A DNA stretch of 64,000 bases from Candidatus Methylacidiphilales bacterium (lineage in GTDB: Bacteria; Verrucomicrobiota; Verrucomicrobiia; Methylacidiphilales; Verrucolacustridaceae). Below, piece after piece: positions 45,666 through 64,000 of the stretch; the first letter of the stretch is position 1; each line of letters opens with the position of its first letter. The notes beneath the pieces are model-generated. The model was not told the origin of the DNA. It saw nothing but the letters and a program-made list of their open reading frames with translations, and ran no database searches. The stretch lies in NCBI GenBank assembly GCA_044358595.1, contig JBIKNP010000009.1, positions 8,433-72,432 of the forward strand, written 5' to 3'. The position numbers were made by a program, and so were the translations under genes.

Positions 45666-45667
45666 TG

Positions 45668-45761: not shown

Positions 45762-45781
45762 TGCCCTTACGTTGCCCTTAC
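45762..45781. repeat. direct repeat TGCCCTTAC x2, possible integrase arm-type sites
   Basis: tgcccttac-gt-tgcccttac about 50 bp inside the tRNA fragment. Confidence 0.45.
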
Positions 45782-48313: not shown

Positions 48314-48340
48314 TTCGCCACTTCAACCGGTTTTATGACG
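48314..48340 (-). promoter_or_regulatory. candidate ECF promoter for galM/GH114
   Basis: CGTCATAA-N13-GGCGAA on the minus strand; exact first box, 4/6 match in second box. Confidence 0.45.
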
Positions 48341-48457
48341 GATCGTTTCAAAGGCGTCGAAGTGCTCCTGACTTGAAAGGAAAAGAGTGCAGGAGTAAGG
48401 CTGACACTTCTTGTCGATGAATGATTTACACGTATGTTGAGTAGGTCTCTGGTGCTC

Positions 48458-48484
48458 CGTCATAACTTGTGAGGTTCAGCTGAA
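48458..48484 (+). promoter_or_regulatory. candidate autoregulatory ECF promoter
   Basis: CGTCATAA-N13-GCTGAA ending 6 nt before the sigma ATG (48491), no SD; consistent with a leaderless mRNA. Confidence 0.65.
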
Positions 48485-48490
48485 GACTCT

Positions 48491-49033
48491 ATGGAGAATA
48501 ATATAACCGATGCAAGTGGCCCGACGCCCGAGTTCGTCCAGCTCTTGACGGCATCGCAAAGCGCTTTGTACGCCTTCATCGTGTCGCTTTTGGGTGGAGT
48601 GAACGACGCCCACGACGTGCTTCAAGAAGCAAACATGAAACTATGTCGGAAATGTGCCGAGTATGATCCGAACCAGCCTTTCCTGCGCTGGGCCTACGCA
48701 TTTGCCCGTTTTGAGGTCATGGCGTGCCGGAAGCGCAACCAGCGGTCGCGCTTGGTTCTGGACGATGCCTTGTTGGCTACCTTTGCCGACGAACTCGAGG
48801 GAACCTCCGAAGACGCGGATCAGCGGTTGAAAGTGCTGGAAACCTGCATGGAGCGCATGACCCCTCGGCAGCGCGAACTCATCGCTGCGCGTTACGGTCG
48901 GGGTGAGGCGGTGCAGGATATCGCGAGCCGTCTTTCCTCATCGGAGAATGCGATGGCTGCCCTCTTTTACCGGTTGCGCAAAATGCTGGCCGACTGCGTG
49001 CAGTCAGTGATCGGTAACAAGGTGAGGGCATGA
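48491..49033 (+). CDS. ECF RNA polymerase sigma-70 factor (Planctomycete/Verrucomicrobia type)
   Basis: FVQLLTASQSALYAFIVSLL, DAHDVLQEANM, FLRWAYAFARFEV, region 4 LIAARY..LFYRLRKMLADCV. Confidence 0.93.
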   Translation: MENNITDASGPTPEFVQLLTASQSALYAFIVSLLGGVNDAHDVLQEANMKLCRKCAEYDPNQPFLRWAYAFARFEVMACRKRNQRSRLVLDDALLATFADELEGTSEDADQRLKVLETCMERMTPRQRELIAARYGRGEAVQDIASRLSSSENAMAALFYRLRKMLADCVQSVIGNKVRA

Positions 49034-50424
49034 GTAAGGAGTCATTCGAGCACCTGTGCCAGGCAGTCCTGGAGGGCACGGCCGACGAGGTGCAACTCGA
49101 ACAGTTCCGCGCGCACTTGCGCGCCGATGCGGTGCAGCGCAAGGCTTACCTCGACCAGACACAGATGCATGCCCTGCTTACTTGGCAACAGGGGCGCGCG
49201 GCCATCCCTGAGCTTGCCCTTCTCTCTCCGACGAATGTAGCTCCCCAACCGAAGATTCGCACCTTCCGCTCCCGCAGGACATCCCCCCTCCTTCAGGCGG
49301 CACTCGCAGCAGCAGTCCTTCTGATGGTGGGATTCGCCTTTTGGCAATTTGGCGATCACGGACGCAAACCCGACTCCGTGTCCGTGGCGAAAGGGGTATC
49401 GGTTGATATCCTTGCCTCGGAGGGCTCGCCGTATCAGGTGGGTGAGCGGGTGGTGCTGGAGAAATTGCGGATGGATAGGGGTTCTTTACGGTTCCGAATC
49501 TCCTCCGGGGCGGTGGTGGACCTAGAAGGTCCCGTGATCTTGGAATTTGTGAATCCGATGCGCTTGCGGCTGTTGCTGGGCAACGTCACCATCGATGTGG
49601 GTTCGGAAGCCAAGGGGTTTGTGCTCGATACAGCGAGCGCCCTCTTGATGGATATTGGTACGCGCTTCGGGGCTTCCGTGGGGAATGACGGCAGCACCGA
49701 TGTTCTGGTGCTTGAAGGTGAGGTTGAAGTTTACCGGGCTGGGGAACTACCTACACAGAAAAGCCGACTCGCGAGTCTTTATGAGGGGGAGGCGGCGCGG
49801 ATGGCGAATCGGGAAGCTAAAATCCAGCGCTTGCAAGCGTTGGCTTTACAGGGTGATCGCTTGGCGATTCGGGGCTTGAACGCCCCTGATTCGGAGGTGA
49901 TCACGGGTGTCACGGACAATATCAAGAAAGCAAACTTTTACCGGTGCTATACGATCACACCGGGTGGTATGGGGGAGGGTGCGCTGGCTTCCCTCGTTCA
50001 TCGCGGGCACCGCAACCTCACTTGGCGCGCCATGCCCGACCAGCTTTTCCCGGCAGAATTGGAAGGAGCCGATGTGATCGGGACCTTTCAACGTCAATCG
50101 ATCCACCAACCACTGCCCGACATTAATCTCGAACTGTCCCGTCCCTGTGCGGTTTACGTTTTATTCGATAGTCGGGCGGAGCCGCCCGAGTGGTTGCGGC
50201 AGGGCTTTCGGGACACTGGGTTACGCTTGCGTAGTGGTCCGTGGTGGCCGGACCTGTTTGAAACGAAAAAGCTTATGCCGGATGCGAATGGTGAGCTCTA
50301 TGTCGTGCATTCTGTCTGGCGCAAGGACGTGCCGGGCTCTGCCACGGTGACACTCGGTGCGCCTACAATTGTAAGCGAGAAATATCGCTACGCCATGTAT
50401 GGCATTGCCGTGAAGCCGCTCTAA
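49030..50424 (+). CDS. FecR-like transmembrane anti-sigma factor with extracytoplasmic sensor domain
   Basis: ATGA overlap with sigma; N-terminal helical anti-sigma domain, TM LLQAALAAAVLLMVGFAFW, FecR core SGAVVDLEGP..DIGTRFG..VLEGEVEV, extra C-terminal domain. Confidence 0.88.
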   Translation: MSKESFEHLCQAVLEGTADEVQLEQFRAHLRADAVQRKAYLDQTQMHALLTWQQGRAAIPELALLSPTNVAPQPKIRTFRSRRTSPLLQAALAAAVLLMVGFAFWQFGDHGRKPDSVSVAKGVSVDILASEGSPYQVGERVVLEKLRMDRGSLRFRISSGAVVDLEGPVILEFVNPMRLRLLLGNVTIDVGSEAKGFVLDTASALLMDIGTRFGASVGNDGSTDVLVLEGEVEVYRAGELPTQKSRLASLYEGEAARMANREAKIQRLQALALQGDRLAIRGLNAPDSEVITGVTDNIKKANFYRCYTITPGGMGEGALASLVHRGHRNLTWRAMPDQLFPAELEGADVIGTFQRQSIHQPLPDINLELSRPCAVYVLFDSRAEPPEWLRQGFRDTGLRLRSGPWWPDLFETKKLMPDANGELYVVHSVWRKDVPGSATVTLGAPTIVSEKYRYAMYGIAVKPL

Positions 50425-50511
50425 TCATCAGTGGGTTTTTTTGGGGTTAGCCCCTTGGGGCTAGGTGGCTGAGGGGTCGCCCTAGGGGGCAGGGGATGGA
50501 GGCACTTTTTT

Positions 50512-50537
50512 CGTCATAAACCGCTCCTGTGGCTGAA
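50512..50537 (+). promoter_or_regulatory. candidate ECF promoter for the PEP-CTERM gene
   Basis: CGTCATAA-N12-GCTGAA. Confidence 0.65.
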
Positions 50538-50598
50538 AATAGTAACCTCTACGTACATTCCCCAATAAACCAAAGTAACATAAATAACAAAACTAATT

Positions 50599-52641
50599 AT
50601 GAATTTAAAAAATTATAGCCAAGTTCATCGCCTCACAGCGATCGCATTCATCCTCGCGCTTGCTCTAGTCCCGACCGCTTCTGCCGCTGACGGCACATGG
50701 ACCGGTGGCACTTCGGTTACATGGGCGACTGCACAAAACTGGTCTGGCTCTATCGTTCCCGGAGGCGCCGCCGCGAATTCTGACTTAGCAACCTTCAATT
50801 CCGGTGCTTACTCGTTCGCACCGACTGCAGTGGACAATTATTTTATCGGTGGCTTGATTTTCGGCAGCTCCAGCGGCGCCATTACGATCACGACGGGGGC
50901 CGGAAACAATCGCCTGAACGTAGGGTCCGGCGGGATTCAGGTGGATGATAGTTCGGGCGCGGTGTCCATCGGGGCTTCAGGTGTCACTACGCAGGGGGCA
51001 AGCATCATCGCCAATCAGAACTGGGCCAACAATTCGAGCAGTCTGCTGACAGTCAATCGTGTGTCGGTCGATAATAGCTCGTCAGCAGGCACCTACACAC
51101 TGACGATTAATGGATCAGGGTCCGGCGGGGTGAATTTGAATACCATCGGTGACGTAAACGGTGGGGCCGACCCCACGCGCTTGTTCGCCTTGCAAATCAA
51201 CTCGACTGGTGGAAATACCACGATCTCCACGGGCAACAATTTTACCGGTGGCACCACGCTGACCCAAGGCAACCTGCTGCTCGGTGCCAACACCGCACTA
51301 GGAACAGGCATCCTCGCCCTCAACGGCGGCAAGATTTCCTCCAGTACAACTGGTGCTCAGGGCCCTGCCAACAACACCACCATCGGCGGTAACGTCGCCC
51401 TTGGCGACGCGGTAAATAACGGCAAGCTGACTTTTAGCGGAACCATGGGCCTCGGCGGAGACAGCCGCACACTCACCACGGATTCCTCGGTGGAATTTAG
51501 CGGCGTGGTCAGCAACGGTGGAATCACCAAGCAAGGCGCAAGCACGCTGACTTTCCTCGGTGCCAGCGCCAACACCTACACCGGCACCACCACCGTCAAC
51601 CACGGAACCTTGGTTCTAGCAAAGACAGCCGGCGTGAACGCCATCGCGGGTGGCCTCACGATCGGGGATGGGACGAATAGCGACACGGTCAATCTCGGAG
51701 CCAGTGATCAGATTGCCGATACCGTTGTCGTCAACATGATTGGCACCGCAAGCGGGCAACGAGGAAACTTCCAACTCCTTGGATTCAACGAGACGATTGG
51801 CGGCTTGAGTGGTGGCGGCCAAGTTCAAAACGCGAGTTCAACCGCCGACAGCGTTCTCACGCTCAATGTTGCCAACGCCACGACGCAGACTTCCAGCGCT
51901 GTGCTTCGCAATACCGGCGGAAGCACGACCGGCAGCCTTTCCATCGTCAAAACGGGCGGCGGCACCCAGATCCTCGGCGGTAACATGACCTACACCGGCG
52001 TCACTAGCATCAACCAAGGTACATTGGCGGTGACCGGATCCCTCTTGAATACTGGAACCGTGTTGGTGAACAACGGAGGTAGCTTAAGTGGATCGGGATC
52101 GGTGGGTGCGGTCACGCTCGCCAGCGGTTCAGTCCTAAGGCCTGGGAACAGTCCTGGGACCTTGACGGCCGCTTCCTCTATTTGGCAGGCGGGGTCGACC
52201 TACAGTTGGGAGATCGACAATGCGACTGGATTGGCCGGAACGAACTGGGATGTGTTCTCAGTGACTGGGGCGTTGGATATGAGTGCTCTTAGTAGTTCCA
52301 GTGCCAGTACGAAAATGAACTTGGTTTTGAATAGTCTTTCGCTGGCCAGCTTCGATACTTCCCCAACATACACTTGGGTTATCGCCAAGGCGGCTTCCTT
52401 GGGTGGAATCAGTGACGGGGTCCAAGACTTAACAGGTTTGTTTAATATAGATACGGCCAACTTTAATGGTGGCTTACCAGCCAATCTGCCGACGGGTGGA
52501 TTTCAGGTTGTCACAGGGACAGAGGGCAGCCTGCGTACTCTCAACCTGATGGCCATTCCTGAGCCCTCTACCGGCACCTTACTAGGCTTTGGCTTGGGTG
52601 GGTTGGTGTTGACTCGGTTACTGCGTCGGAAGCAGAGCTGA
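50599..52641 (+). CDS. PEP-CTERM surface protein with autotransporter-associated beta-strand repeats
   Basis: Signal peptide; NNFTGGTTLTQGNL, ITKQGASTLTF..NTYTGTTTVNHGTL, IVKTGGGTQILGGNMTYTG; C-terminal AIPEPSTGTLLGFGLGGLVLTRLLRRK. Confidence 0.92.
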   Translation: MNLKNYSQVHRLTAIAFILALALVPTASAADGTWTGGTSVTWATAQNWSGSIVPGGAAANSDLATFNSGAYSFAPTAVDNYFIGGLIFGSSSGAITITTGAGNNRLNVGSGGIQVDDSSGAVSIGASGVTTQGASIIANQNWANNSSSLLTVNRVSVDNSSSAGTYTLTINGSGSGGVNLNTIGDVNGGADPTRLFALQINSTGGNTTISTGNNFTGGTTLTQGNLLLGANTALGTGILALNGGKISSSTTGAQGPANNTTIGGNVALGDAVNNGKLTFSGTMGLGGDSRTLTTDSSVEFSGVVSNGGITKQGASTLTFLGASANTYTGTTTVNHGTLVLAKTAGVNAIAGGLTIGDGTNSDTVNLGASDQIADTVVVNMIGTASGQRGNFQLLGFNETIGGLSGGGQVQNASSTADSVLTLNVANATTQTSSAVLRNTGGSTTGSLSIVKTGGGTQILGGNMTYTGVTSINQGTLAVTGSLLNTGTVLVNNGGSLSGSGSVGAVTLASGSVLRPGNSPGTLTAASSIWQAGSTYSWEIDNATGLAGTNWDVFSVTGALDMSALSSSSASTKMNLVLNSLSLASFDTSPTYTWVIAKAASLGGISDGVQDLTGLFNIDTANFNGGLPANLPTGGFQVVTGTEGSLRTLNLMAIPEPSTGTLLGFGLGGLVLTRLLRRKQS

Positions 52642-52790
52642 ACCGACCGCACGTAAAAGATATCTGGAAGGGACTACGCTTCGGTGTGGTTTGGAGAGCC
52701 ACTTACGCGCGAATCCTAACCTCGGCGGAGACATTTTCACACTGACAAGGACGGGGAAGGGGGTTGTATGGCGAGGGTGTGAACTTTTCC

Positions 52791-52816
52791 CGTCATAATC
52801 TGCACTTTCGGCTGAA
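52791..52816 (+). promoter_or_regulatory. candidate ECF promoter for the pilin-like/glycosidase unit
   Basis: CGTCATAA-N12-GCTGAA. Confidence 0.65.
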
Positions 52817-52916
52817 AGTTAGCTTAGAGTTTTTGCTACCTGCTGATGCTAGGTGACTCACTCTAGATCCCATCAAAAGACCCAAACAGTATATTATCGA
52901 AAAAACAGATTTCTCT

Positions 52917-53183
52917 ATGCCAAGCAAAAGACGACTTTCAGATGCTTTCACTCTCGTCGAATTGCCCGTTGTTATAGCGATTATTGGTCTGCTAGCTGGC
53001 CTCGTCGTTCCTGTCATGGGTAAGGCCCGTGAATCGTCAGGCGACTGGGCCAAATGCATGTCTAACATGCGTCAAATTAGCTCCGTCTATCAAAAAGACG
53101 TGGAAATTTACAAAAAGCTGAGCTGTTCAAAAGCATTGGTCGCCCTAGGTGACAGTAAGGGGTCGGATCAGAATGCGGAATGA
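52917..53183 (+). pseudogene. truncated prepilin-type N-terminal cleavage/methylation protein (DUF1559/H-X9-DG-like), probably decayed
   Basis: DAFTLVELPVVIAIIGLLAGLVVPVMGKARES..CMSNMRQI; Pro in the pilin helix; only 88 aa; triple stop TGATGATAA. Confidence 0.6.
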
Positions 53184-53370
53184 TGATAACCCGCACAATG
53201 GGTCAGTATCAGGGATTTAGGCTCATCCGACATTCTTTGGATCATAAGAAATAAAACCGAACCCTTTTCCAAATTCCTCAGTTTAATCCTATATGAATAC
53301 ACAACCCACCTACCGTGGCACTCTGTTCCTAGTGGGCAAGGGACATTTGCATCAGAAAAAGTTTTAATTT

Positions 53371-55212
53371 ATGAAACAAACCGCTTTGAGTCTAATGTCG
53401 GCGAGCCTGTTGTATGCCGGGTCGTTGTCGTTTGCTGTCCAGCCGACCTGGCCGGATATTACGATTCAGGTTCAAGCCGGCCAGCCGGTCGAGACGGCAC
53501 AAACCGTGACGGATGAGGCGGACGGTTTTCAGCGTGTGGCCATCACCCTCTCCAACAAAGGCTCTCAGCCGCTGGCAATCGAGAGGATTAATATCCGCAT
53601 CCCTCTGGCCGAAAAACTGACTAGTGATCTTGAGATTCTTTACGGTGGAAGTTGTATGGGGCGCACGCCCATCTTACGCCAGAACGTGGGCGCGGCGACC
53701 GCGAAAAGCTCCAGCCACATGTTTGAAATGGTGCGACTGGCGGACGGTAAGTATCTCTTCGCTGGGGCGCTCTCTTGGCGCATCTTCCTACCAAACTTCA
53801 CGATCAAGGACGGCGCGATCGTGATCTGGTCTGACGGCGAGGGGCGGCAACTCAAACCGGGTGAGACGATTTCGTATGAGCAAATTGTCCTCAAGCGTGG
53901 CGACGATTGGCTGATGACTCTCGACCAATTCGGCACCGCCATCGCAGGGGAGAACGGCATCAAGAAACTGAAGCCTGCCGATTTCAAAGGTTGGGCCACA
54001 TGGGATTACTATGGCCGAGTTTTTACCGCCAAGGATATCTACGGCAACATGGATGTGCTTAAAAAAATCGCCCCCGAGGCGAACATAGTCCAGATCGACG
54101 GTGGCTGGTGGACCGAGCGCGGCGATTACCAGAGCGTACGCCCCAATCTTCTGCCCGGCGGCATCAAGGAGATCATCTCCCGTGTCACTTCTGAGGGGAA
54201 AATCCCCGGCATCCACTTCGACGGCTTTCGGGGCGATGAGAATTCTGAGATCTACAAAGCCCACCCCGAATATTTCCTGCACGATCTGGACGGCAAGTTG
54301 ATCGTTGAGGTGAATAACAAGGGGGACAAGGTGATGAGGTATATTTACTTCGATTACTCACATCCCGGCGCGCGGGCGCATATCGCCGATTGCATCAAGA
54401 ACATGAAGGACAATTGGGGCATTCGTTATTTCAAGGTGGACTTCATGCGGTACGGCTTGAAGAACGACACTCTGGCTAAGAATAAAAAGGCCAAAGGGAT
54501 CAAAGCCTTCGACCCGACGATCACCAGTGTGGAGCGTTTCCGTCTCGCGATGAAAACCATGCGCGATGCCATGGGGCCGGACACCTATTTTCTGGGTTGC
54601 TCAGCGGTCTTCGGACCCTGCATCGGATTCGTGGACGGGATGCGCACTGGCGGCGACATCCACCCAAGATACGGGGCCTTTCCCGAACGCTCGCTGGCCA
54701 ATCTCGGTAACTTCTATTTGAACGGCAAGGTGTGGAATGGCGATGCCGACTATCTCGTTTTCCGCGAGGCGGCCGATGAAGATGCGACGGTTTCCCAGGA
54801 GGACGTCAAACACGGCGGCAGTATGACGCTCAACGAGGCGCAAATGTGGGCGGACTTCAACAAGCTTTACGGCACAGCTCGACTAAGCAGTGATAACCTG
54901 ATGACGCTCAGGCCAGAACGGCAGGCATTGGTGAAAGAAGTGTTGCAGTATCCAGCGATGGACGAGACCGTGCCGCTGGATCTCTGGCAGCATAGCAAGA
55001 ACAAGGGCGACGGCTTCGATCTGGTGCTCGCTCGTAAAGGTGAGGGGGTCTACCTCGGAGTCTTCAACTGGGGCGAAAAGCCCAAGGAGTATGCACTGCA
55101 AGCCTTCGGCAAGGCTGAGCCTGTCAAATTGGACGGACGTCATTCGATCATCTTGAAATACGACGGTAAGGACTCTTTCGCGCAACTTTGTGCGAAGATG
55201 AAATCCAAATGA
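53371..55212 (+). CDS. secreted clan GH-D (GH36/GH27-like) alpha-galactosidase-type glycosidase
   Basis: Signal peptide; GWATWDYY, QIDGGW, YFDYSHP, YFKVDF (nucleophile), MRTGGDI (acid/base). Confidence 0.8.
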   Translation: MKQTALSLMSASLLYAGSLSFAVQPTWPDITIQVQAGQPVETAQTVTDEADGFQRVAITLSNKGSQPLAIERINIRIPLAEKLTSDLEILYGGSCMGRTPILRQNVGAATAKSSSHMFEMVRLADGKYLFAGALSWRIFLPNFTIKDGAIVIWSDGEGRQLKPGETISYEQIVLKRGDDWLMTLDQFGTAIAGENGIKKLKPADFKGWATWDYYGRVFTAKDIYGNMDVLKKIAPEANIVQIDGGWWTERGDYQSVRPNLLPGGIKEIISRVTSEGKIPGIHFDGFRGDENSEIYKAHPEYFLHDLDGKLIVEVNNKGDKVMRYIYFDYSHPGARAHIADCIKNMKDNWGIRYFKVDFMRYGLKNDTLAKNKKAKGIKAFDPTITSVERFRLAMKTMRDAMGPDTYFLGCSAVFGPCIGFVDGMRTGGDIHPRYGAFPERSLANLGNFYLNGKVWNGDADYLVFREAADEDATVSQEDVKHGGSMTLNEAQMWADFNKLYGTARLSSDNLMTLRPERQALVKEVLQYPAMDETVPLDLWQHSKNKGDGFDLVLARKGEGVYLGVFNWGEKPKEYALQAFGKAEPVKLDGRHSIILKYDGKDSFAQLCAKMKSK

Positions 55213-56786
55213 GTAGCGCCTCTGACAAAACCCTCCTCTTAAGAAAAAGGGCCCTACTTGGTCCATTGGCTGCGATGTCCTGCGTTTGGCTGTTCATGGG
55301 GATCGGGCTTTTATCTGGCGAACCAGTTTCGGTTGGTGGTAACGAAGCGAAGACTCGGTTCCTTTTCGAACAGGGTTCGCTGGTGATGACGGCTGAAGCG
55401 TTACGCGACGCGAACGGAAGCTTTTCCTTTTCTCAATTACCGAACCCCAAGCCCAAGTGTAATATGGAGCTGAAGGGGGATGTGACCCCGTTGACTGCGC
55501 GCATGTTGAAAATCGCCCTCGATGACGTGGAGCATAACATGGTTACCAGTGAGTCGGGCGCGGTTTACTTTGGTGCCGGTAATAAGTACGGCTTGCGCAT
55601 CTACGAGCGTGATATCGCAGTTTCCGGGGTTCTGGGCCTTAACCATCTTTATCCGGAAGTGATGCTTTCGTCGCTCAAGGTGGCTCGTGAAATACGCAAG
55701 GAGCTGGGCTACAAAGTCTCCGCACCACACGTGGTTCAGGAGATTGATGTCCCTTGGGAAGTGATTGCCCAGGCGGACAAGGCGATCATGGAGAAATACC
55801 GGACCAACTCTTACACCCGCCGCACCGATGATGTGGCCTGGCTCTGGGCGGTGGACGATCTCTTCATGCTTCATCCGGAGAACGCTGAGTGGAAATGGAT
55901 GGTTGAAAATGGCGATTATTTTTTCAATGTCTTCTATGATCCTTGGTTCGATAAGACCGACGGCCTTTTTCGCGGTCAGCCGCTTTTTCACGACATCCAA
56001 AGCTCCGCTTATCCGAAAGGGATGAGTATTGCCGATTGCGTACTACTCAAAGCTCTCTCAACAAACTGCCTCTACTATCGCGGTATGCAGGCCATGGCTA
56101 AGGCCTGCGAAAAAAGCGGCCGGCCAGCCGGGGAAAAACAGCACTGGATGGATCGTGCCTCCGCCCTCAAGGTCGCCATCCAAAAGGAATTCACCCAGCC
56201 CGACGGCACACTTGCCTATTACAAAGATCGCCATGGCAAAAGCATGCTGAACCGCGAGATTCTAGGAACTGCTTTCGCGGCCATCTTCGGAATTGTGGAG
56301 GGCGACGCCGCGAAAGCGGCCTTGGCGGATTATCCTATGACCGACAAGGGCATCCCGCTCTTTTCGCCGTTCATTCCCGGTAACTCCGGGCCACACAACA
56401 TGGCAAGCTGGCCGTTCTGTGACACCTTCTTCCTGCGGGGAAAATCCATCGCCGATGGGAAAGACTACACCGACTATAACGCCGCGCTGCTGGCCCGATC
56501 GATTGGCACCACCATCAAGTCCAAAAAGGGGAGGGAGGGCAAGGCGGAGGTGGATGGCTTTGGATCCTTCCATGAATACATCACCCTCCCGGACGGGCTG
56601 ATTACTGGGTCAGGACGTCAACTTTGGTCCGCCGCCGCCTTTCTCAACGTCTGCATTCGATCCGGACTCCCTCCCGAAAAACGGGTAGGGCAGGCAAACA
56701 CAACCAAAAACAAAAGGGAAAGTAGTATTCAGAGAGAGCTGAACGTGAAGAGTAAATCGCTCACCGGAAGCCTCCTTAACTCCTAA
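55209..56786 (+). CDS. secreted six-hairpin (alpha/alpha)6 glycosidase-like protein (GH63/amylo-alpha-1,6-glucosidase-like)
   Basis: FGAG..IYERD, TDDVAWLWAV, KALSTNCLYY, WPF, FHEY, SGRQLWSAA; ATGA overlap with the GH36-like gene. Confidence 0.65.
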   Translation: MSSASDKTLLLRKRALLGPLAAMSCVWLFMGIGLLSGEPVSVGGNEAKTRFLFEQGSLVMTAEALRDANGSFSFSQLPNPKPKCNMELKGDVTPLTARMLKIALDDVEHNMVTSESGAVYFGAGNKYGLRIYERDIAVSGVLGLNHLYPEVMLSSLKVAREIRKELGYKVSAPHVVQEIDVPWEVIAQADKAIMEKYRTNSYTRRTDDVAWLWAVDDLFMLHPENAEWKWMVENGDYFFNVFYDPWFDKTDGLFRGQPLFHDIQSSAYPKGMSIADCVLLKALSTNCLYYRGMQAMAKACEKSGRPAGEKQHWMDRASALKVAIQKEFTQPDGTLAYYKDRHGKSMLNREILGTAFAAIFGIVEGDAAKAALADYPMTDKGIPLFSPFIPGNSGPHNMASWPFCDTFFLRGKSIADGKDYTDYNAALLARSIGTTIKSKKGREGKAEVDGFGSFHEYITLPDGLITGSGRQLWSAAAFLNVCIRSGLPPEKRVGQANTTKNKRESSIQRELNVKSKSLTGSLLNS

Positions 56787-56814
56787 CAACAGTAACAAAA
56801 ACTACATACAAAAT

Positions 56815-58794
56815 ATGAAAATCAATCCTATGAAAAATACCCAATTTAACTCCTCCACCATGATGAAAATGTTGAGTCTCATCGCGCTGGTGGTTGCATG
56901 CTCGTGTTCATCCGTTCAAGCCGTGCCGCCATCGATAGCCTTTGGGGTTTGGGATCGCACCTCTACCTTCGATCCAAAGGACTACCCCTTCCTGAAGGGA
57001 TTGGCGTTTAACCAAGCATGGGCGGATCTTGAAAAACAGCCGGGTGTTTTTGATTGGAGTGCTTTGGATCAGGCCATGGATTCTGCGGTTAAAAGGAACC
57101 AGTTTATTTATCTTTCCGTTAATGTGGGACCGGACTCGCCGGAGTGGATCTATACAAAGGGTGTCCCGCGTGTGGAGACACGTAACCAGACGCACGACAG
57201 CTGGCCATCTTATCCCTTCTATCCTTCGCCCGAATACAAATCGTTTTTACAAAAAATGATCACCGAATTTGCGAAACATATTCGCACTTATCCAAAAGAG
57301 AAGCAGGAGCGCATCGCTTTCATTCAGGTCAAGACTGGGTGCACCGGTGATGAGTGCGCTTACAAGGGTACTGTTGTGGAGAATAAGTATGACTTGCCCA
57401 CCAAGTCCCCCGCCTGGCGGGAGTTCCGGCTGTGGCAGTTTGATTTGTTTGTGAAGACCTTCCAGGGCGGTTCTGACCAGCCTCAGATTGCCCTCATGTT
57501 TAACAATGTGGAGCCGGATGGCGAAGAGACGGCCGAGGGTAAGAATGGTGGAAAGGGGGAGGGGAAGGGCGAGGGTGGATTTATCGAAGAGTGGAAATGG
57601 GTCACAGCCAACGCCAAGGGCGGAGTTGGTGTCAAAATTGCTGGCAGCGGACGTGGTCACCACCTGAGCGGGGAGCGAACCAAGATCGAGACATGGGAAC
57701 CCCTTCTCATCGCTTCGCAGGGCACTCCCTTGTTTGCCCGGTCTGAAATGGACCAAACTTGGCAAAAGGCCATGTATTTTGTGAATCGGCCACTCAACTT
57801 CTACTGGGGTGCCCTCACAGGTCTGCAAAACGGGCAAAGCATCTGGGATGTCAGCGCTGGCGCCATGGAAGCCTGCAAGGAACAGGGTTTTGACTACTCC
57901 TTCTATTTCTTTGATCGCTATGCAGGACAAATTGACCCGAAGACAGCTACCGATGTCTTCTGCGCTTTACACAAAGGGCTGGATGCTGCCGATACCAAGG
58001 CCTATCCCGAGGCCGAGTTCGGGGCTGCCCAGCGCAAGAACGTGGACCGTATGCTGAAAATTTGCGCTGCCTACGCCAAGTATGGGGCGGCGGTGGACGA
58101 CCAGAATGGTCTACTGCTCGGGCAAGTCCGGCAACGAGACACGCAAACGGGATTGAACGATGTGGGTTGGGATATCTGGCCAGACAACTATGGTCGCTTT
58201 CTTTATCAGATCGATTCCGACGCCACGTCGGTTCCGCTCTGGCGCGTGGGGGGGCCGATCACGCAGATGTCCTCCATCTACTCCCGCTTTGCCCGCGGCT
58301 TCGAGCACGCCTCAGGCAAAGACACTATGTTTTTCAAGCTGCACGAGGGCTTCTCCGAGGGTAATGAACCGAAGGTCATGACGATGACCGTCGTCTGGTA
58401 TGACGGGACGGCAGGCTCGACTTGGAAGTTGGATTACGACGCTGGCAAGGGGGGCATGAAGACGGCGCTGAACGTCACTGGGAAAGGTGACAAGCAGTGG
58501 CATCATGAAACGGTTACAGTCGAGGATGCCGTGCTGCGTCAGGGTGGAACCAAGGGCGCGGACTTCGCCCTAGTGAACACCGATGACAAGGACGACATCT
58601 TCAGCCTGATCGAAGTTCATCGCGGCAAACTAGAAACACCCATCCTATTGCCTCCGACGAGTTACAAGGTGCCCGACAAAGCACCGAAGGGGCCTAAAGC
58701 CGATAAGGGCGATAAGGGCGATAAGGCTGGCAAGTCTGGCAAAGAGAAAAAGGGAAAAGGGAAGAAGTCTGACGAAGACGCAACGCAGGAATAA
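56815..58794 (+). CDS. secreted putative TIM-barrel glycan-active enzyme, paralog 1, with C-terminal beta-sandwich and Lys-rich tail
   Basis: Signal peptide; WADLEKQPGVFDWSALD (GH35/42-like start), TGCTGDE, RGHHLS, SEMDQTW. Confidence 0.65.
   Translation: MKINPMKNTQFNSSTMMKMLSLIALVVACSCSSVQAVPPSIAFGVWDRTSTFDPKDYPFLKGLAFNQAWADLEKQPGVFDWSALDQAMDSAVKRNQFIYLSVNVGPDSPEWIYTKGVPRVETRNQTHDSWPSYPFYPSPEYKSFLQKMITEFAKHIRTYPKEKQERIAFIQVKTGCTGDECAYKGTVVENKYDLPTKSPAWREFRLWQFDLFVKTFQGGSDQPQIALMFNNVEPDGEETAEGKNGGKGEGKGEGGFIEEWKWVTANAKGGVGVKIAGSGRGHHLSGERTKIETWEPLLIASQGTPLFARSEMDQTWQKAMYFVNRPLNFYWGALTGLQNGQSIWDVSAGAMEACKEQGFDYSFYFFDRYAGQIDPKTATDVFCALHKGLDAADTKAYPEAEFGAAQRKNVDRMLKICAAYAKYGAAVDDQNGLLLGQVRQRDTQTGLNDVGWDIWPDNYGRFLYQIDSDATSVPLWRVGGPITQMSSIYSRFARGFEHASGKDTMFFKLHEGFSEGNEPKVMTMTVVWYDGTAGSTWKLDYDAGKGGMKTALNVTGKGDKQWHHETVTVEDAVLRQGGTKGADFALVNTDDKDDIFSLIEVHRGKLETPILLPPTSYKVPDKAPKGPKADKGDKGDKAGKSGKEKKGKGKKSDEDATQE
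58276..58631 (+). repeat. near-identical copy of 60283-60638 (3' domain of paralogs 1 and 2)
   Basis: By-eye alignment shows long identical runs with mostly third-position differences. Confidence 0.85.
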
Positions 58795-58848
58795 GCCGAT
58801 CCTGCTAGATTTGCGGTCGCAACAGATAACGACATCGCAAAAAGTTTA

Positions 58849-60753
58849 ATGAAGCCAATTGAATTCAAGACCTATACCTTCATAAGCACTCTCAGTCTTA
58901 TAGGTCTGTTGGTCGTCTGCTCGTTTGCCTTGCTTCAATCAGCGCCGCCGCCAAGCGCCTTTGGGGTGTGGGATCGGGCGGATAAATTTGACCCCAAAGA
59001 GTATCCCTTCCTCAAAGGGTTTAGTTTCGATCAGAAATGGGCCGATTTGGAAAAGCAGCCGGGAGTTTTTGATTGGAGCGGCTTGGATGAGGTTATGGAA
59101 AGAGCCACTCAGAATAAGCAGTTCGTTTATTTATCCTTGGGTGTGGGGCCCGTTGCTCCGGAATGGATTTACCAACATGGTGTGCCGAAAGTTGAGACCG
59201 ACGGTGAGAAGGATAAACACATGGATAAATGGGATGGCTATCCTTACTACTTGGCTCCCGAATACAAAACGTATTTTTTCCGCCTGATTCAGGAATTCGG
59301 AAAACATATTCGCAGTTATCCCCGCGAAAAACAGGAGCGTATTGCATTTATCCAAATCAAGACCGGATGTACCGGTGATGAAACCGCCTATAAAGGCAAG
59401 GCCATCGAGAGCAAATATGATCTGCCTCGCAGCTCTCCCGCGTGGCGAGAGTTCCGCTTGGAGACCTTCGACTTGTTTGTGAAAATCTTCGCTGGAAGTG
59501 CTGATCAGCCTAAGATTGACCTGCTATTCAACGCCATCGGACCGGTCATCGGATCGGAAGAGGACCCAGTCGAAGCCCAAGAGGGATTCGTCAAAGAGTG
59601 GGATTGGGTGATCCATCACGTCCAAGGCAGCTTTGGTATCAAGAATGGAGCTCTTTCTCGCGGGCATCATCTCTCCGGAGAACGCTCCTTGTATAACCAG
59701 TGGACACCCTACCTCCTTGATCCCAAGGGGCTGACGCTGTTCCGCCGGTCGGAGATGGATCAGACCTGGCAGAAGCCGTGGTATCAGTTGAACGTCCCAC
59801 TCAATTTTTACTGGGGCGCGATCAACGCCCTTAATGGCGGTCAGAGTGTCTGGGATGTCACCAAGAGCGCCATAGACGCGTGCAAGGAACAGGGCTTCGA
59901 CTACTCCTTCTACTTCTTTAACCGCTACGCCGGACAGATCTATCCCAAGACAGCCACCGATGCCTTCTGCGCTCTACACAAAGGATTAGATGCTGCCGAT
60001 ACCAAGGCTTATCCCGAGGCAGAGTTTGGACCTGCCCAGCGCAAGAACGAGGGTCGCATGCTGAAAATCTGCGCCGCGTACGCTAAGTATGGTGCGGCGG
60101 TCGATGACGAGGATGCACTGTTGCTGGGGCAAGTCCGCCAAAGAGACACGCAAACCGGATTCAACGACGTAGGCTGGGATATCTGGCCGGACAACTATGG
60201 CCGCTTCCTCTATCAGATCGATGCTGATGACACATCGGTTCCGCTCTGGCGTGTGGGCGGTCCGATTACTCCGACCTCTTCTATCTACTCCCGCTTTGCC
60301 CGCGGCTTCGAGCACGCCTCCGGCAAAGACACGATGTTTTTCAAACTGCACGAGGGCTTTTCCGAGGGTAACGAGCCGAAGGTCATGACGATGACCGTCG
60401 TCTGGTATGACAGGACGGCAGGCTCAACATGGAAGCTGGATTACGACGCTGGCAAGGGGGGCATGAAGACGGCGCTGAACGTTACTGGGAAAGGTGACAA
60501 GCAGTGGCATCATGAAAGGGTCACGGTGGAGGATGCGGTGCTTCGTCAGGGTGGAACCAAGGGCGCGGACTTTGCCCTCGTGAACACCGATGACAAGGAT
60601 GACATCTTCAGCCTGATTGAAGTCCATCGCGGCAAACTGGAGGCCCCGGAGGTGTCTGACATAGCGCCGGTGACACCCGAGGCGGGAAAGGCAACCAAAG
60701 CTGGCAAAGAGAAAAAGGGGAAACGAAAGAAGGCGGATGAAGAAGCAGATTAG
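58849..60753 (+). CDS. secreted putative TIM-barrel glycan-active enzyme, paralog 2
   Basis: Same motifs as paralog 1 (GVWDR, TGCTGDE, RGHHLSGE, SEMDQTW, GWDIWPDNYGRF); Lys-rich tail. Confidence 0.65.
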   Translation: MKPIEFKTYTFISTLSLIGLLVVCSFALLQSAPPPSAFGVWDRADKFDPKEYPFLKGFSFDQKWADLEKQPGVFDWSGLDEVMERATQNKQFVYLSLGVGPVAPEWIYQHGVPKVETDGEKDKHMDKWDGYPYYLAPEYKTYFFRLIQEFGKHIRSYPREKQERIAFIQIKTGCTGDETAYKGKAIESKYDLPRSSPAWREFRLETFDLFVKIFAGSADQPKIDLLFNAIGPVIGSEEDPVEAQEGFVKEWDWVIHHVQGSFGIKNGALSRGHHLSGERSLYNQWTPYLLDPKGLTLFRRSEMDQTWQKPWYQLNVPLNFYWGAINALNGGQSVWDVTKSAIDACKEQGFDYSFYFFNRYAGQIYPKTATDAFCALHKGLDAADTKAYPEAEFGPAQRKNEGRMLKICAAYAKYGAAVDDEDALLLGQVRQRDTQTGFNDVGWDIWPDNYGRFLYQIDADDTSVPLWRVGGPITPTSSIYSRFARGFEHASGKDTMFFKLHEGFSEGNEPKVMTMTVVWYDRTAGSTWKLDYDAGKGGMKTALNVTGKGDKQWHHERVTVEDAVLRQGGTKGADFALVNTDDKDDIFSLIEVHRGKLEAPEVSDIAPVTPEAGKATKAGKEKKGKRKKADEEAD

Positions 60754-60845
60754 GAAAAAGCAGTCCGATTTGAGGCTGGGTTAGCATCTTTAAAGGGCGG
60801 ACCGGGCTATGACGAGGGGGGTTGGGCTCATGTTCCTTTCGATTT

Positions 60846-60872
60846 TGTCACACAGCACATAAATTTGCTAAA
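60846..60872 (+). promoter_or_regulatory. weaker candidate ECF promoter for paralog 3
   Basis: TGTCACAC-N13-GCTAAA; same spacing, 5/8 and 5/6 matches. Confidence 0.35.
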
Positions 60873-60899
60873 TAGCGAATTGGTAGTATGTTAGACTTT

Positions 60900-63800
60900 A
60901 TGAGAAGCGCTTTTCTCCTCCTCAGCGCTTTGATGCTGGCTCCGCTATACCCGCTTCGCGCCGAGCTCGGACTGCAACGTGATGCCTATGGCGTATGGGA
61001 CCGGGCGGGAGGGCATCCTGTCGATCAATATCCCTATGTCCGGGGTCAGGAATATGCGGCGGAGTGGACGGCAATCAATCCAGCTCGGAACACCTTTGAC
61101 TGGACTGCGCTAGATAGCCTATTGCAGGTGGCCTACGATCAAAACCAGAGATTTTTCGTCAAGATCCAGCCTGTCTCTGGGACGACTATGCCGCCTTGGA
61201 TATTTGATGCGGGCGTTCCAAAAATCACCTGCCCTACGTACACCTATGGATACTATCTGGATCCTGAATTCAAAATCTACTTTGAAGAAATGGTGCAGGC
61301 GCTGGGCAAACATCTGCGCGAGGACGTTCCGGCTCATCTGGCGAATATCGTCTCTTTCGTTCGCGTAGATACCGGCGCCACGGGGGACGAAGAGCCGTAT
61401 GAAGGCTCGGACGTTCCCTTCGTTCCGCCTGAGTATCAAATTAGCGCCAACGATTGGAAGGGTTATAGGCTGTGGGCCTTCAATGTTTATGACCAGGCCT
61501 TCCAGCACGGCACGGGACCTCAAATTCCACTGCTCTTTCAAAATATCGAGGTGCCTGCCTATCAGACCGAGCAGGACTGGGTGACGGCCAATGTAACGTC
61601 CGGATTCGGTGGCAAGTATGGCGGACAAGTTCGCGGGCACCATTTGTCGGAATCCAGAAACGTGTCGGACTCGTTCAAGGCGCTTTCCATGGATACACCG
61701 TCCAAGTTTTTCTCCGTAAATGAGATGGATCAGACTTGGGAAAAACCCTATTTCCAGCTCAATCTCAAATTGGGCATGTACTGGTGCGCGGTGGAACAAC
61801 TCAACGCCGGCATGACAATATGGGATTGGAGCAGTTCGGTCATGGAGGGCGCGGCGGCCAATGACATCGTCTCTATTGCCGAGTTTTTCAACACCTGGGC
61901 GGCGGAACTCGACCCGCCAACGGCCCGAGGCGGATTCTGTATCTTTCACGAAGGACTTGCTTCCGAAGATATAGATAAGTTTCCAGAAGCAACCTATGGA
62001 TCGCCGGCAAACAGGGGCAATACCAACCGGTATACCAACATCTGCGCGGCCTATGCCAGCCAGGGGGCCAAGATGGACGATCTGAACGCGGTCACCTTGG
62101 GACAGGTGGCGCAGCGCAGGGTACAGGCTGGATTCAACGATTCCGGTTGGGGGATTTGGCCTGGGAACTATGAACGATTTATAATTCAGATGAACCCGGA
62201 CTCCACTAGTAAGGGACTCTGGCGCGTCAACGGAACTTTGACGACCAGCTCGCATCCGTATGACCGCTTCGCACGCCGTTTCGACAACGCCTCCAGCAGA
62301 AATACGATGTATTTTGACATCAATGACAAACTGCTGCCTTCAGCGGGCCAGCGGGTTAGGCTTTCCGTGGACTATCTGGACCGAGGCACCGGTCAGTTTG
62401 CCCTTCAATACGATGCCGTAGGGAATAACCAGAAAAACGCGTTCACGGTCACGAAGACTGGTAGTAATACTTGGAAGACAGCCTCGGCGATAGTCACGGA
62501 CTGGGCCTTCAGAAACGGCAGCCTAAACGGTGCTGACCTGACATTGGTTAATCTGGATACAGATGATGATATTTTTCACAAATTGGAAGTGACCAAGCTG
62601 GCCAATGTCCAAATCGGCACCGTTGGCATGGGCACGGTCAGCGCTCGCACGGACGCCGCGACCTACTCGCCGGTCGTAGGTAGCGACTTCGCCGAGAGCC
62701 AGCGCTTGGAATTGACGGTGACTCCTGCTTCGGGATGGAAATTCACCGGATGGAGCGGCGATTTGACCGGGACCAGTGCCCGCCCGTTTCTTTTCCCAAC
62801 CAAAGACTCGCGGGTCACGGCCACCTTTGCTCGGACTTCGGCTACCCCTCCGAGCAGCATACCTCTCTTCAGCAGCGATCCGATCGGCAAGACCGCCGCA
62901 CCGGTCAATGGGGTCTACTCGGGAACCCTTTCGGGAAATGCCAGCGATCCGAACGGGCAACCGTTGACTTTCTCCAAAACCTCCGGCCCCTCTTGGCTCA
63001 GCATCGCTGCCAACGGGACCCTCTCTGGAACACCGCAGCTCGCCGACCTGGGCCTAAATAGCTGGACGGTGCGGGTAAGTAGCTCCGGCGGCAGTGACAC
63101 GGCGATTCTCCTGATCGATGTCACTGCACCTGGTCCTAATCCACCCTCGGGCCTAAGCTACTCCAGCCCTCCCGTTTACACCAAGGGTACGGCGATCGCG
63201 AATCTCTCCCCTTCGAACAGTGGCGGGGGCGTGGTGAGATATGCGGTCACGCCCAAATTACCAAGCGGCTTCAGCATGAACAGCATCACCGGCATTATTA
63301 GTGGCACACCTTTGGCACCAACACCGGCGACCCCCTACAGCATCACGGCGATTAATCCCGACGGTTCGAGCACCACCTCACTCAACATCACGGTCATCGA
63401 TATAGCCCCTTCCGCACTGACCTATTCCAGCAATCCCGCAACCTATCGAATAGATCAGGCGATCACTTCGAATGTTCCCACCAACAGTGGTGGAGCCGTG
63501 GTTTCCTACGCGGTCTCGCCCGCACTACCAGCCGGGCTGGCTTTAAGCACCACCACCGGCATCATTAGCGGCACGCCGACGGCACTTTCTACCAGCGCCA
63601 ACTACACTATCACCGCCACCAACACAGGCGGCTCGACAACTGCCAAGCTGAACATTGCAGTCGAAGAAGGCGGCTACCGCAATTCCGACCTCATCACGAT
63701 CAATGACAATGCAGCGGCCTCGCCCTACCCATCCGCGATCGCGGTGCCAACAACAGCCGGAACAATCACTAAGGTCACGGTCACGATTTATGGCCTCACA

Positions 63801-64000
63801 CACGAAAGGCAAAACGATTTGGACATTCTGCTAGTCGGGCCACTGGGGCAGAAAGTGCTGTTGATGTCGGATGTTGGCGGAGGTGTGTCTGTAGCCAATG
63901 TGAATCTAACGTTCGATGATGCAGCCACAGTTTTCCTGCCGACTAGTGCGGTGTCCATTACCACCGGAACCTACAAACCCACTGATAGCGGGGCAACTTC
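60900..64000 (+). CDS. multidomain secreted paralog 3: catalytic module + B-repeat-like + three putative Ig (He_PIG-like) + proprotein convertase P-like domain; runs off window
   Basis: Not in ORF track; hand translation MRSAFLLLSALMLAPLYPLRAELGLQRDAYGVWDR..TGATGDE..RGHHLS..NEMDQTW; LTVTPASGWKFTGWSGD; GTLSGTP, GIISGTP x2; ITINDNAAASPYPS..THERQNDLDILLVGP; over 1030 codons with no stop. Confidence 0.85.
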   Translation, partial: MRSAFLLLSALMLAPLYPLRAELGLQRDAYGVWDRAGGHPVDQYPYVRGQEYAAEWTAINPARNTFDWTALDSLLQVAYDQNQRFFVKIQPVSGTTMPPWIFDAGVPKITCPTYTYGYYLDPEFKIYFEEMVQALGKHLREDVPAHLANIVSFVRVDTGATGDEEPYEGSDVPFVPPEYQISANDWKGYRLWAFNVYDQAFQHGTGPQIPLLFQNIEVPAYQTEQDWVTANVTSGFGGKYGGQVRGHHLSESRNVSDSFKALSMDTPSKFFSVNEMDQTWEKPYFQLNLKLGMYWCAVEQLNAGMTIWDWSSSVMEGAAANDIVSIAEFFNTWAAELDPPTARGGFCIFHEGLASEDIDKFPEATYGSPANRGNTNRYTNICAAYASQGAKMDDLNAVTLGQVAQRRVQAGFNDSGWGIWPGNYERFIIQMNPDSTSKGLWRVNGTLTTSSHPYDRFARRFDNASSRNTMYFDINDKLLPSAGQRVRLSVDYLDRGTGQFALQYDAVGNNQKNAFTVTKTGSNTWKTASAIVTDWAFRNGSLNGADLTLVNLDTDDDIFHKLEVTKLANVQIGTVGMGTVSARTDAATYSPVVGSDFAESQRLELTVTPASGWKFTGWSGDLTGTSARPFLFPTKDSRVTATFARTSATPPSSIPLFSSDPIGKTAAPVNGVYSGTLSGNASDPNGQPLTFSKTSGPSWLSIAANGTLSGTPQLADLGLNSWTVRVSSSGGSDTAILLIDVTAPGPNPPSGLSYSSPPVYTKGTAIANLSPSNSGGGVVRYAVTPKLPSGFSMNSITGIISGTPLAPTPATPYSITAINPDGSSTTSLNITVIDIAPSALTYSSNPATYRIDQAITSNVPTNSGGAVVSYAVSPALPAGLALSTTTGIISGTPTALSTSANYTITATNTGGSTTAKLNIAVEEGGYRNSDLITINDNAAASPYPSAIAVPTTAGTITKVTVTIYGLTHERQNDLDILLVGPLGQKVLLMSDVGGGVSVANVNLTFDDAATVFLPTSAVSITTGTYKPTDSGAT

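What the first reader, a model, noticed from the sequence alone, without database searches (positions are those of the whole stretch)
48314..60872. Shared bipartite motif CGTCATAA-N12/13-GCTGAA suggests the ECF sigma's regulon, including a leaderless autoregulated sigma gene
Seen: CGTCATAA at 48458 (before sigma), 50512 (before PEP-CTERM), 52791 (before pilin/GH unit) and on the minus strand at 48333-48340 (before galM). In the three plus-strand cases it is followed by GCTGAA after 13, 12 and 12 nt. A weaker TGTCACAC-N13-GCTAAA precedes paralog 3. Before the sigma gene, GCTGAA ends 6 nt upstream of the ATG with no SD. All copies I found are intergenic and point toward a downstream gene. Established: ECF sigmas commonly autoregulate through bipartite -35/-10 elements, and the TSS lies about 6-7 nt after -10. 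Inference: this is the cognate promoter of this ECF group.
Basis: partly seen in the sequence, partly recalled or inferred. Interest (0 to 1): 0.72.

Follow-up and report, generated by a model that had tools for sequence, protein, structure and literature searches.

The report
ECF sigma promoter of glycan locus
A short two-part DNA signal, found in this genome only in front of one alternative sigma factor gene and its neighbouring sugar-degrading genes, is very probably that sigma factor's own promoter; this is a well-supported but ordinary kind of bacterial gene switch.

Summary
CGTCATAA-N12/13-GCTGAA occurs three times in the 2.17-Mb genome, and all three copies lie within 4.4 kb at the reported coordinates. 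A further good copy (CGTCATAA-N13-GCTAAA) lies just past the window end, and TGTCACAC-N13-GCTAAA at 60846 is a weak copy. The motif sits upstream of every orthologous TIGR02989-type ECF sigma/FecR-like anti-sigma operon that I read. These come from about 25 loci in Verrucomicrobia, Bremerella (Planctomycetes) and unassigned metagenome contigs, at 57-98% sigma identity. In most Verrucomicrobia loci it also precedes the downstream glycan genes. The boxes are conserved while the spacers diverge. Across 61 related genomes, 13 of 14 exact matches are in the six genomes that carry the sigma gene. A monophyletic sigma sub-clade with changes in sigma region 2 (F74N, K81T) keeps the -35 box, but its -10 box is GTGGAA instead of GCTGAA. 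This points to direct recognition by the sigma factor. In 14 of 22 lineages the -10 box ends 6-10 nt before the start codon (6 nt here, with no Shine-Dalgarno sequence), so a leaderless or nearly leaderless sigma mRNA is plausible. It is unproven, because no transcript data could be reached. Verdict: a new member of a known kind, the autoregulated ECF promoter, here with a regulon limited to one locus.

The parts
48314..48340 (-). Candidate weak divergent promoter for the galM-GH114 unit: CGTCATAA-N13-GGCGAA
   Evidence: The -35-like box is exact and the -10 is degenerate (G..GAA). The PWM score is below 9 bits. The box and a G..GAA-type -10 half (GCTATA and GGCTAA in two loci) are kept before the galM orthologue in 7 loci (75-98% sigma identity), even where the distance to the sigma gene differs.
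47131..48279 (-). Aldose 1-epimerase (galM), followed by GH114 at 46142-47074; part of the conserved core of the locus
   Evidence: Pfam Aldose_epim 332.8 bits and GH114 85 bits. Syntenic in L011, L014, L016, L018 and L020.
48458..48484 (+). Sigma-gene promoter P1: CGTCATAA-N13-GCTGAA; the -10 box ends 6 nt before the ATG
   Evidence: PWM 23.9 bits. Conserved upstream of all orthologues.
48491..49033 (+). ECF sigma factor, 180 aa, TIGR02989 subfamily
   Evidence: TIGR02989 156.2 bits against a cut-off of 124.55; Sigma70_r2 and r4_2. It is the only such sigma in the genome. The start Met aligns in all orthologues.
49030..50424 (+). FecR-like single-pass anti-sigma factor, 464 aa; its start overlaps the sigma stop codon
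   Evidence: Pfam FecR 29.9 bits. The AF2 model shows an N-terminal helical domain, a TM helix at 87-103, and a beta domain matching PupR 6ovk_R and BDI_1681 4m0n at E=1e-5. A conserved C-terminal beta-sandwich (290-464) remains unassigned.
50512..50537 (+). Promoter P2: CGTCATAA-N12-GCTGAA, 61 nt before the PATR/PEP-CTERM gene
   Evidence: PWM 37.3 bits, the second-best hit in the genome.
50599..52641 (+). PATR-repeat protein with a PEP-CTERM anchor
   Evidence: Pfam PATR 51.2 bits; PEP-CTERM 20.6 bits, just below its cut-off.
52791..52816 (+). Promoter P3: CGTCATAA-N12-GCTGAA, before the pilin-like ORF and the glycoside-hydrolase operon
   Evidence: PWM 38.8 bits, the best hit in the genome. 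The orthologous site is kept in G005, G008, G024 and L014.
52917..60753 (+). Transcription unit after P3: an 88-aa prepilin-like ORF, a melibiase-like GH, a six-hairpin GH and two GH42-like paralogues
   Evidence: Pfam hits. Four of the five genes are tightly spaced (overlap to 55 nt); a 188-nt gap separates the pilin-like ORF from the melibiase-like gene. No motif copy of 9 bits or more lies inside the unit.
60846..60872 (+). Weak candidate promoter P4: TGTCACAC-N13-GCTAAA, before the 1393-aa paralogue 3
   Evidence: PWM 14.4 bits, significant only in its local context. Kept in G024. Each deviation from consensus is also seen at other accepted sites.
60888..64000 (+). Paralogue 3, which runs past the window end to window-equivalent 65069. 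Beyond it lie promoter P5 (CGTCATAA-N13-GCTAAA at 65125, 26.4 bits), paralogue 4 and two sulfatases.

Best explanation
The motif, consensus TTTTYCGTCATAA-N12/13-GCTGAA, is the -35/-10 promoter recognised by the single TIGR02989-type ECF sigma factor encoded at 48491-49033. At rest, the co-transcribed FecR-like membrane anti-sigma factor holds the sigma factor. On an unknown periplasmic signal, probably glycan-related, the sigma factor is released. It then directs RNA polymerase to its own operon (positive autoregulation) and to four to six further promoters, all within about 20 kb. These lie before the PATR/PEP-CTERM gene, before the pilin-like/glycoside-hydrolase operon, before paralogues 3 and 4, and probably, more weakly, before the divergent galM-GH114 unit and the sulfatases. 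In this lineage the sigma promoter's -10 box ends 6 nt before the ATG. The transcript should therefore start at or within about 1 nt of the start codon, giving a leaderless mRNA. Shown here: motif statistics, conservation, co-occurrence with the sigma gene, and covariation between sigma region 2 and the -10 box. Inferred: binding, start sites, the inducing signal and leaderless translation.
For: Only 3 exact copies exist in the genome, all in the locus, against about 0.06 expected. The top 4 PWM hits in the genome are in the locus. An unbiased k-mer count over 23 intergenic regions chosen by position alone ranks GCTGAA (16/23) and CGTCAT (15/23) first; the shuffle maximum is 8. The boxes are invariant while the spacers diverge upstream of orthologous sigma genes at 57-98% identity, including Bremerella. 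In most Verrucomicrobia loci the motif recurs before each downstream unit, in the direction of the genes. In 61 related genomes, 13 of 14 exact matches are in the 6 sigma-positive genomes, 1 is in the 55 others, and the reversed-pattern control gives 1. Sigma and anti-sigma are the only genes common to all loci. The monophyletic 'WRT' clade (100/100 support; F74N, K81T in sigma region 2) has -10 GTGGA(A/T/C) in 6 of 6 loci with the -35 box unchanged, and its nearest RK-type relative that could be read (P0083) keeps GCTGAA. No sigma-70-like promoter is found in these intergenic regions, and there are no Rfam matches. The sigma region 4 helix-turn-helix is nearly invariant among the closer orthologues, as is the -35 box. 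For the leaderless claim: ATG 48491 is the only possible start. An in-frame TGA lies 18 nt upstream, the HMM match begins at residue 14, and the Met aligns in all orthologues. The gap from the -10 box to the start codon is 6-10 nt in 14 of 22 lineages.
Against: The -35 box lacks the AAC core and the -10 box lacks the CGT core typical of many ECF promoters. The covariation between sigma region 2 and the -10 box rests on a single evolutionary event. Site 4 and the galM-side site are weak on score alone. One orthologue (L022) has lost the -35 box. Eight of 22 lineages have gaps of 15-55 nt, several with an AGGA upstream of the start, so leaderless initiation is not a fixed property of the family.
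Confidence: 0.85

Rival explanations
1. The sigma promoter is real, but the sigma mRNA is not strictly leaderless. Transcription might start 1-3 nt before the ATG, or an additional upstream promoter might supply a leadered transcript, with translation by a non-SD mechanism.
For: Relatives have gaps of 8-10 nt, implying leaders of 1-4 nt, or gaps of 15-18 nt with AGGA. The 210-nt intergenic region is fairly conserved upstream of the motif as well.
Against: No sigma-70-like promoter is found in the intergenic region. A 6-nt gap puts the usual ECF start, the seventh nt after the -10 hexamer (from general knowledge of ECF promoters), exactly on the A of the ATG.
Confidence: 0.35
2. The motif is the operator of a different locus-specific transcription factor, a repressor or activator, rather than a sigma recognition site.
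For: No binding data exist. The motif sits where an operator could sit.
Against: The two halves are neither palindromic nor direct repeats. No other regulator gene is shared among the loci. The -10 half changes together with sigma region 2 residues. The fixed short distance to the sigma start codon fits a promoter.
Confidence: 0.05
3. The motif is a promoter variant used by the housekeeping sigma factor, or a sequence remnant copied along with duplicated intergenic DNA, and has no link to the ECF sigma factor.
For: The T-rich tract before the -35 box resembles an UP-like element. Sites 2 and 3 share some flanking similarity.
Against: The motif is absent from the rest of the genome and from 55 relatives that lack the sigma gene. 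Similarity between sites does not extend beyond about 45 nt. It does not resemble TTGACA/TATAAT.
Confidence: 0.04

Closest known systems
Autoregulated ECF sigma/anti-sigma modules with group-specific bipartite promoters (for example E. coli sigma-E, B. subtilis SigW; ECF classification of Casas-Pastor et al. 2021, PMC7826278)
   Same: A two-domain sigma factor, a co-transcribed membrane anti-sigma factor, a motif upstream of its own operon and of neighbouring target genes, and a geometry that places the -35 box at about -33 and the -10 box at about -12 to -7.
   Different: The box sequences are CGTCATAA and GCTGAA, not GGAAC/CGT-type. The regulon appears confined to a single locus of about 20 kb. 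I could not check whether the ECF Hub already lists this subgroup's motif, because the paper's supplements are not held.
FecI-FecR-FecA / PupI-PupR cell-surface signalling
   Same: The anti-sigma factor has a FecR domain, and its fold matches the PupR C-terminal signalling domain.
   Different: There is no TonB-dependent transducer in the locus. The genome has one TonB-dependent receptor on another contig and no STN signalling domain at all. The anti-sigma factor carries an extra conserved C-terminal beta-sandwich. The sigma factor scores as TIGR02989, not as a FecI-type family.
Bacteroidetes PUL-linked ECF sigma/anti-sigma pairs (SusC/D-coupled)
   Same: An ECF sigma/FecR-like pair next to glycoside hydrolases and sulfatases that it presumably controls.
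   Different: There are no SusC/SusD genes. PEP-CTERM and prepilin-like proteins are present instead.
ECF41-type promoters (TGTCACA-N16-CGTC; recalled from memory, not tested)
   Same: The GTCA-containing -35 box is similar.
   Different: The -10 box differs, the sigma family differs, and an anti-sigma factor is present here.

Membership tests
ECF (group 4) sigma-70 family | Only regions 2 and 4, about 180 aa | tested here: met
   Sigma70_r2 at residues 20-83 and Sigma70_r4_2 at 115-166; TIGR02937 66 bits against a cut-off of 42.9.
TIGR02989 (Rhodopirellula/Verrucomicrobium sigma subfamily) | Score above the curated cut-off over the full model | tested here: met
   156.2 bits against 124.55, model positions 2-158 of 158.
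Autoregulated ECF module | Co-transcribed anti-sigma factor directly downstream | tested here: met
   Start and stop codons overlap at 49030-49033. The anti-sigma factor has an N-terminal helical domain, a single TM helix and a FecR domain.
Autoregulated ECF module | The same bipartite motif upstream of the sigma gene itself and of its target genes, conserved in orthologues | tested here: met
Autoregulated ECF module | Sigma-dependent transcription starting about 6-8 nt after the -10 box | not testable with these tools
Typical ECF promoter consensus | An AAC core in the -35 box and a CGT core in the -10 box | tested here: not met
   The boxes are CGTCATAA and GCTGAA (PWM). The overall spacing is still compatible with ECF geometry.
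FecIRA-type cell-surface signalling | FecR-type anti-sigma factor | tested here: met
   Pfam FecR 29.9 bits; Foldseek matches to 6ovk_R and 4m0n at E=1e-5.
FecIRA-type cell-surface signalling | TonB-dependent transducer with an N-terminal STN signalling domain | tested here: not met
   No STN domain in the genome. The single TonB-dependent receptor lies on contig C35, away from the locus. The genome is 93% complete.
Leaderless mRNA | Transcript 5' end at the start codon | not testable with these tools
   Geometry only: a 6-nt gap, no SD, and an unambiguous ATG.

The most novel reading that the evidence does not exclude
Within one orthologous ECF subgroup, a natural switch in -10 specificity (GCTGAA to GTGGAA) arose together with changes in sigma region 2 (F74N, K81T), while the -35 box and region 4 stayed fixed. 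This would give a naturally evolved pair of partly orthogonal sigma/promoter sets and a direct read-out of which region 2 residues read positions 2-3 of an ECF -10 element. In addition, leaderless or nearly leaderless sigma operons would be the prevailing arrangement in this family.
Probability: 0.45. Interest if true: 0.55.

Novelty: new member of a known kind. Interest (0 to 1): 0.4.

Why it matters
The result gives a concrete, testable sigma/promoter pair and a compact predicted regulon for uncultivated freshwater Verrucomicrobia. These bacteria degrade glycans without SusC/D systems, and almost nothing is known about how they regulate this. The promoter marks which neighbouring genes belong to one response: PEP-CTERM, pilin-like, hydrolase and sulfatase genes. 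The sigma factor is paired with a FecR-like sensor, yet the genome has no TonB-dependent transducer with a signalling domain, so the signal must enter by another route. The clade-level covariation between sigma region 2 and the -10 box could be useful for engineering orthogonal ECF switches. Conceptually, it remains a standard autoregulated ECF circuit.

Tried and rejected
2. The literature gave no entry for this subgroup's motif. TIGR02989 returned no papers. The supplements of the ECF reclassification paper are not held. Jogler 2012 and Wiegand 2020 are not held. Other searches returned nothing specific.
3. My first pattern used the wrong gap and found nothing; this was corrected.
4. Loci fetched from other whole genomes were not available in the Python box, so I used the DNA search on them instead.
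5. The PWM hit at C39:67562 (23.1 bits) appears, by eye, to lie in coding sequence on the opposite strand (not checked with an ORF call), and it is within the shuffle range. I treated it as chance.
6. I considered a reading on the reverse strand (TTCAGC...TTATGACG) and rejected it. All copies point toward downstream genes and sit 6-100 nt before start codons.
7. I considered a repeat or mobile-element origin and rejected it. Similarity between sites is limited to the motif and a short T-tract.
8. Foldseek did not assign the anti-sigma factor's C-terminal domain.
Full report
**Observation**

The window is C31:8433-72432 of a 2.17-Mb, 43-contig genome with 53% GC.

| Copy | Position | Sequence |
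|---|---|---|
| Sigma gene | 48458 (+) | CGTCATAA-N13-GCTGAA |
| PEP-CTERM gene | 50512 (+) | CGTCATAA-N12-GCTGAA |
| Pilin/GH unit | 52791 (+) | CGTCATAA-N12-GCTGAA |
| galM side | 48333-48340 (-) | CGTCATAA, degenerate -10 |
| Paralogue 3 | 60846-60872 (+) | TGTCACAC-N13-GCTAAA |

- Before the sigma gene, GCTGAA ends at 48484. Six nt ('gactct') follow, then the ATG at 48491, with no SD.
It lies inside a 1439-aa ORF and has no -10 half.

**Statistics**

- The bare 8-mer is not enriched in the genome (43 copies).
- The bipartite pattern CGTCATAA-N11-14-GCTGAA occurs exactly three times in 2.17 Mb, all in this locus. About 0.06 copies are expected from the frequencies of the two halves.
- A loosened pattern finds eight genome matches, five of them in the locus. 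One is a new site outside the window: CGTCATAA-N13-GCTAAA at window-equivalent 65125, before a fourth GH-like paralogue.
- A 23-site PWM gives the consensus TTTTYCGTCATAA-N9/10-TYGGCTGAA(A).
  - It places its four best genome hits in the locus: 38.8, 37.3, 26.4 and 23.9 bits. Shuffled genomes reach 18-24 bits.
  - The PWM included the window's own sites, so the exact-pattern count is the independent evidence.
- Site 4 scores 14.4 bits. That is noise genome-wide, but about p=0.001 for its 135-nt intergenic region. A further weak site of 10.8 bits precedes the sulfatases. The galM-side site scores below 9 bits.

**Genes**

- 48491-49033 encodes a 180-aa ECF sigma factor. It belongs to TIGR02989 (156 bits against a cut-off of 124.55) and is the only one of its kind in the genome.
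- Its stop codon overlaps the start of a 464-aa FecR-domain anti-sigma factor.
- Downstream lie:
  - a PATR/PEP-CTERM protein;
  - an 88-aa prepilin-like ORF;
  - a melibiase-like hydrolase and a six-hairpin hydrolase;
  - four paralogues of a GH42-like enzyme;
  - two sulfatases.
- Upstream and divergent lie galM and a GH114 gene.

**Comparative evidence**

- Orthologues of the sigma gene are patchy. Four other species of the 31 sampled in the genus carry it. A fifth has the gene cut off by a contig end.
- More orthologues occur in other freshwater Verrucomicrobia MAGs (72-90% identity) and in Bremerella, a planctomycete (62-65%). Metagenome contigs extend the range down to 57%.
- Upstream of every orthologue read, the -35 box (CGTCA + T/G/C + A/G + A/T/C) and a -10 hexamer are present at N12/13 while the spacer diverges.
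  - Example: CTTGTGAGGTTCA, CTAGTGCGCTTCG and TCGGTGTGCCTCC at 90% protein identity.
  - One orthologue (L022) has lost the -35 box.
- In most Verrucomicrobia loci the motif recurs after the anti-sigma gene and before further units, always in the direction of the genes.
- A k-mer count over 23 intergenic regions chosen by position only ranks GCTGAA (16/23) and CGTCAT (15/23) first. No 6-mer exceeds 8 in shuffles.
- In the 61 genomes, the exact pattern CGTCATAW-N12/13-GCTGAA occurs 14 times:

| Set | Matches |
|---|---|
| 6 genomes carrying the sigma gene | 13 |
| 55 genomes without it | 1 |
| Reversed-pattern control | 1 |

- Sigma and anti-sigma are the only genes shared by all loci. galM and GH114 are shared within Verrucomicrobia, and the downstream enzymes vary.

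**Covariation**

- Twelve of 113 sigma homologues carry FAR(N/H)EV..WRT in region 2 instead of FARFEV..(x)RK, that is F74N and K81T in window numbering.
- These twelve form one clade with 100/100 support.
- In all six loci read from this clade the -35 box is unchanged (CGTCATAT, or CGTCACAT in L031), but the -10 hexamer is GTGGA(A/T/C). A second site in L031 shows the same.
- The nearest RK-type relative that could be read (P0083) keeps GCTGAA.
- This is a single evolutionary event, so it is not statistical proof. It is, however, what direct reading of the upstream part of the -10 element by region 2.4 predicts (established knowledge of sigma-70-family factors).
- The region 4 helix-turn-helix is nearly invariant among the closer orthologues, matching the constant -35 box.

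**Leaderless question**

- ATG 48491 is the only possible start codon:
  - an in-frame stop lies 18 nt upstream;
  - the family model aligns from residue 14;
  - the Met aligns in all orthologues.
- The gap between the -10 hexamer and the start codon across non-redundant lineages:

| Gap (nt) | Lineages |
|---|---|
| 6 | 1 (this lineage) |
| 8 | 6 |
| 9 | 4 |
| 10 | 3 (two of them the Bremerella loci) |
| 15 | 1 |
| 17-18 | 6 (often with AGGA) |
| 55 | 1 |

- With the usual ECF start at about the seventh nt after the hexamer (general knowledge), this lineage would start exactly on the A of the ATG. The lineages with 8-10 nt gaps would have leaders of 1-3 nt.
- This makes leaderless initiation plausible and fairly widespread in the family, but it is inference only.

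**Sensor**

- The AF2 model of the anti-sigma factor has mean pLDDT 65. It shows:
  - an N-terminal helical domain;
  - a TM helix at 87-103;
  - a beta domain matching the PupR signalling domain (6ovk_R) and BDI_1681 (4m0n) at E about 1e-5;
  - a conserved but unassigned C-terminal beta-sandwich.
- The genome has one TonB-dependent receptor, on another contig, and no STN domain. The classical FecA-type signalling input is therefore not met, and how the signal enters is unknown.

**Alternatives**

- No sigma-70-like promoters and no Rfam families occupy these intergenic regions.
- An operator for another regulator is unlikely. The halves have no symmetry, no other shared regulator gene exists, and the -10 half tracks sigma residues.
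- The motif is specific to this subgroup. Sigmas at 30-38% identity and the second sigma pair in the Bremerella loci show no such box in the upstream sequence read; the latter share a different conserved stretch.

**Verdict**

- The cognate-promoter interpretation is supported at about 0.85. The leaderless sub-claim stands at about 0.6.
- This is a new member of a well-known kind, the autoregulated ECF promoter, with a one-locus regulon. It adds a natural -10 specificity variant. I could not check whether the ECF Hub already lists this subgroup's motif.

Noticed in passing
L031, L033-L037 (metagenome contigs); sigma residues 74 and 81 in window numbering: A monophyletic sigma sub-clade with F74N and K81T in region 2 has -10 GTGGA(A/T/C) instead of GCTGAA, while its -35 box is unchanged. 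The nearest RK-type relative that could be read (L039) keeps GCTGAA.
   Followed up: yes
C31, window-equivalent 65125-65151 and 67253-67284 (past the window end): A further strong motif copy (CGTCATAA-N13-GCTAAA, 26.4 bits) lies before a fourth GH-like paralogue. A weak copy (CATCACAT-N12-GCTGAA, 10.8 bits) lies before two sulfatase genes.
   Followed up: partly
L022:5880-6000: In this 72%-identical orthologue the sigma gene keeps GCTGAA and the 18-nt leader, but the -35 box is replaced by unrelated sequence. A full motif copy lies about 3 kb upstream, before another gene, so the sigma gene may be read through from there.
   Followed up: no
L016, L022, L014 (record titles): Contigs carrying this Verrucomicrobia-type locus at 72-90% identity sit in MAGs labelled Aliarcobacter sp., uncultured Acidobacteria and Akkermansiaceae. 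These are probably binning or labelling errors.
   Followed up: no
L023, L024 (Bremerella) 5940-6530 and 9557-10150: Planctomycete Bremerella species carry a 62-65% identical sigma/anti-sigma pair with the same promoter type, next to sulfatases. A second, unrelated sigma pair 3.5 kb downstream has a different conserved upstream stretch (GGGGAATTT...GGTAGAATAC).
   Followed up: partly
window 52917-53183: The prepilin-like ORF is only 88 aa. Its counterparts in L017 and L020 are 222-266 aa and match only over the N-terminal 52-56 residues, so it may be a truncated remnant. L013, L014 and L016 have no such gene between the motif and the melibiase-like gene.
   Followed up: partly
window 49900-50424 (anti-sigma residues 290-464): A conserved C-terminal beta-sandwich domain has no Pfam match and no clear PDB fold match. 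It is a candidate sensor domain in a genome that lacks STN-type transducers.
   Followed up: partly
window 45000-46300: The sigma locus is present in only about 6 of 31 species of the genus, which fits an accessory island.
   Followed up: partly
window 44052-45416: A BspA-type leucine-rich-repeat surface protein (LRR_5, 205 bits) with an InlB B-repeat lies just upstream of the locus.
   Followed up: no
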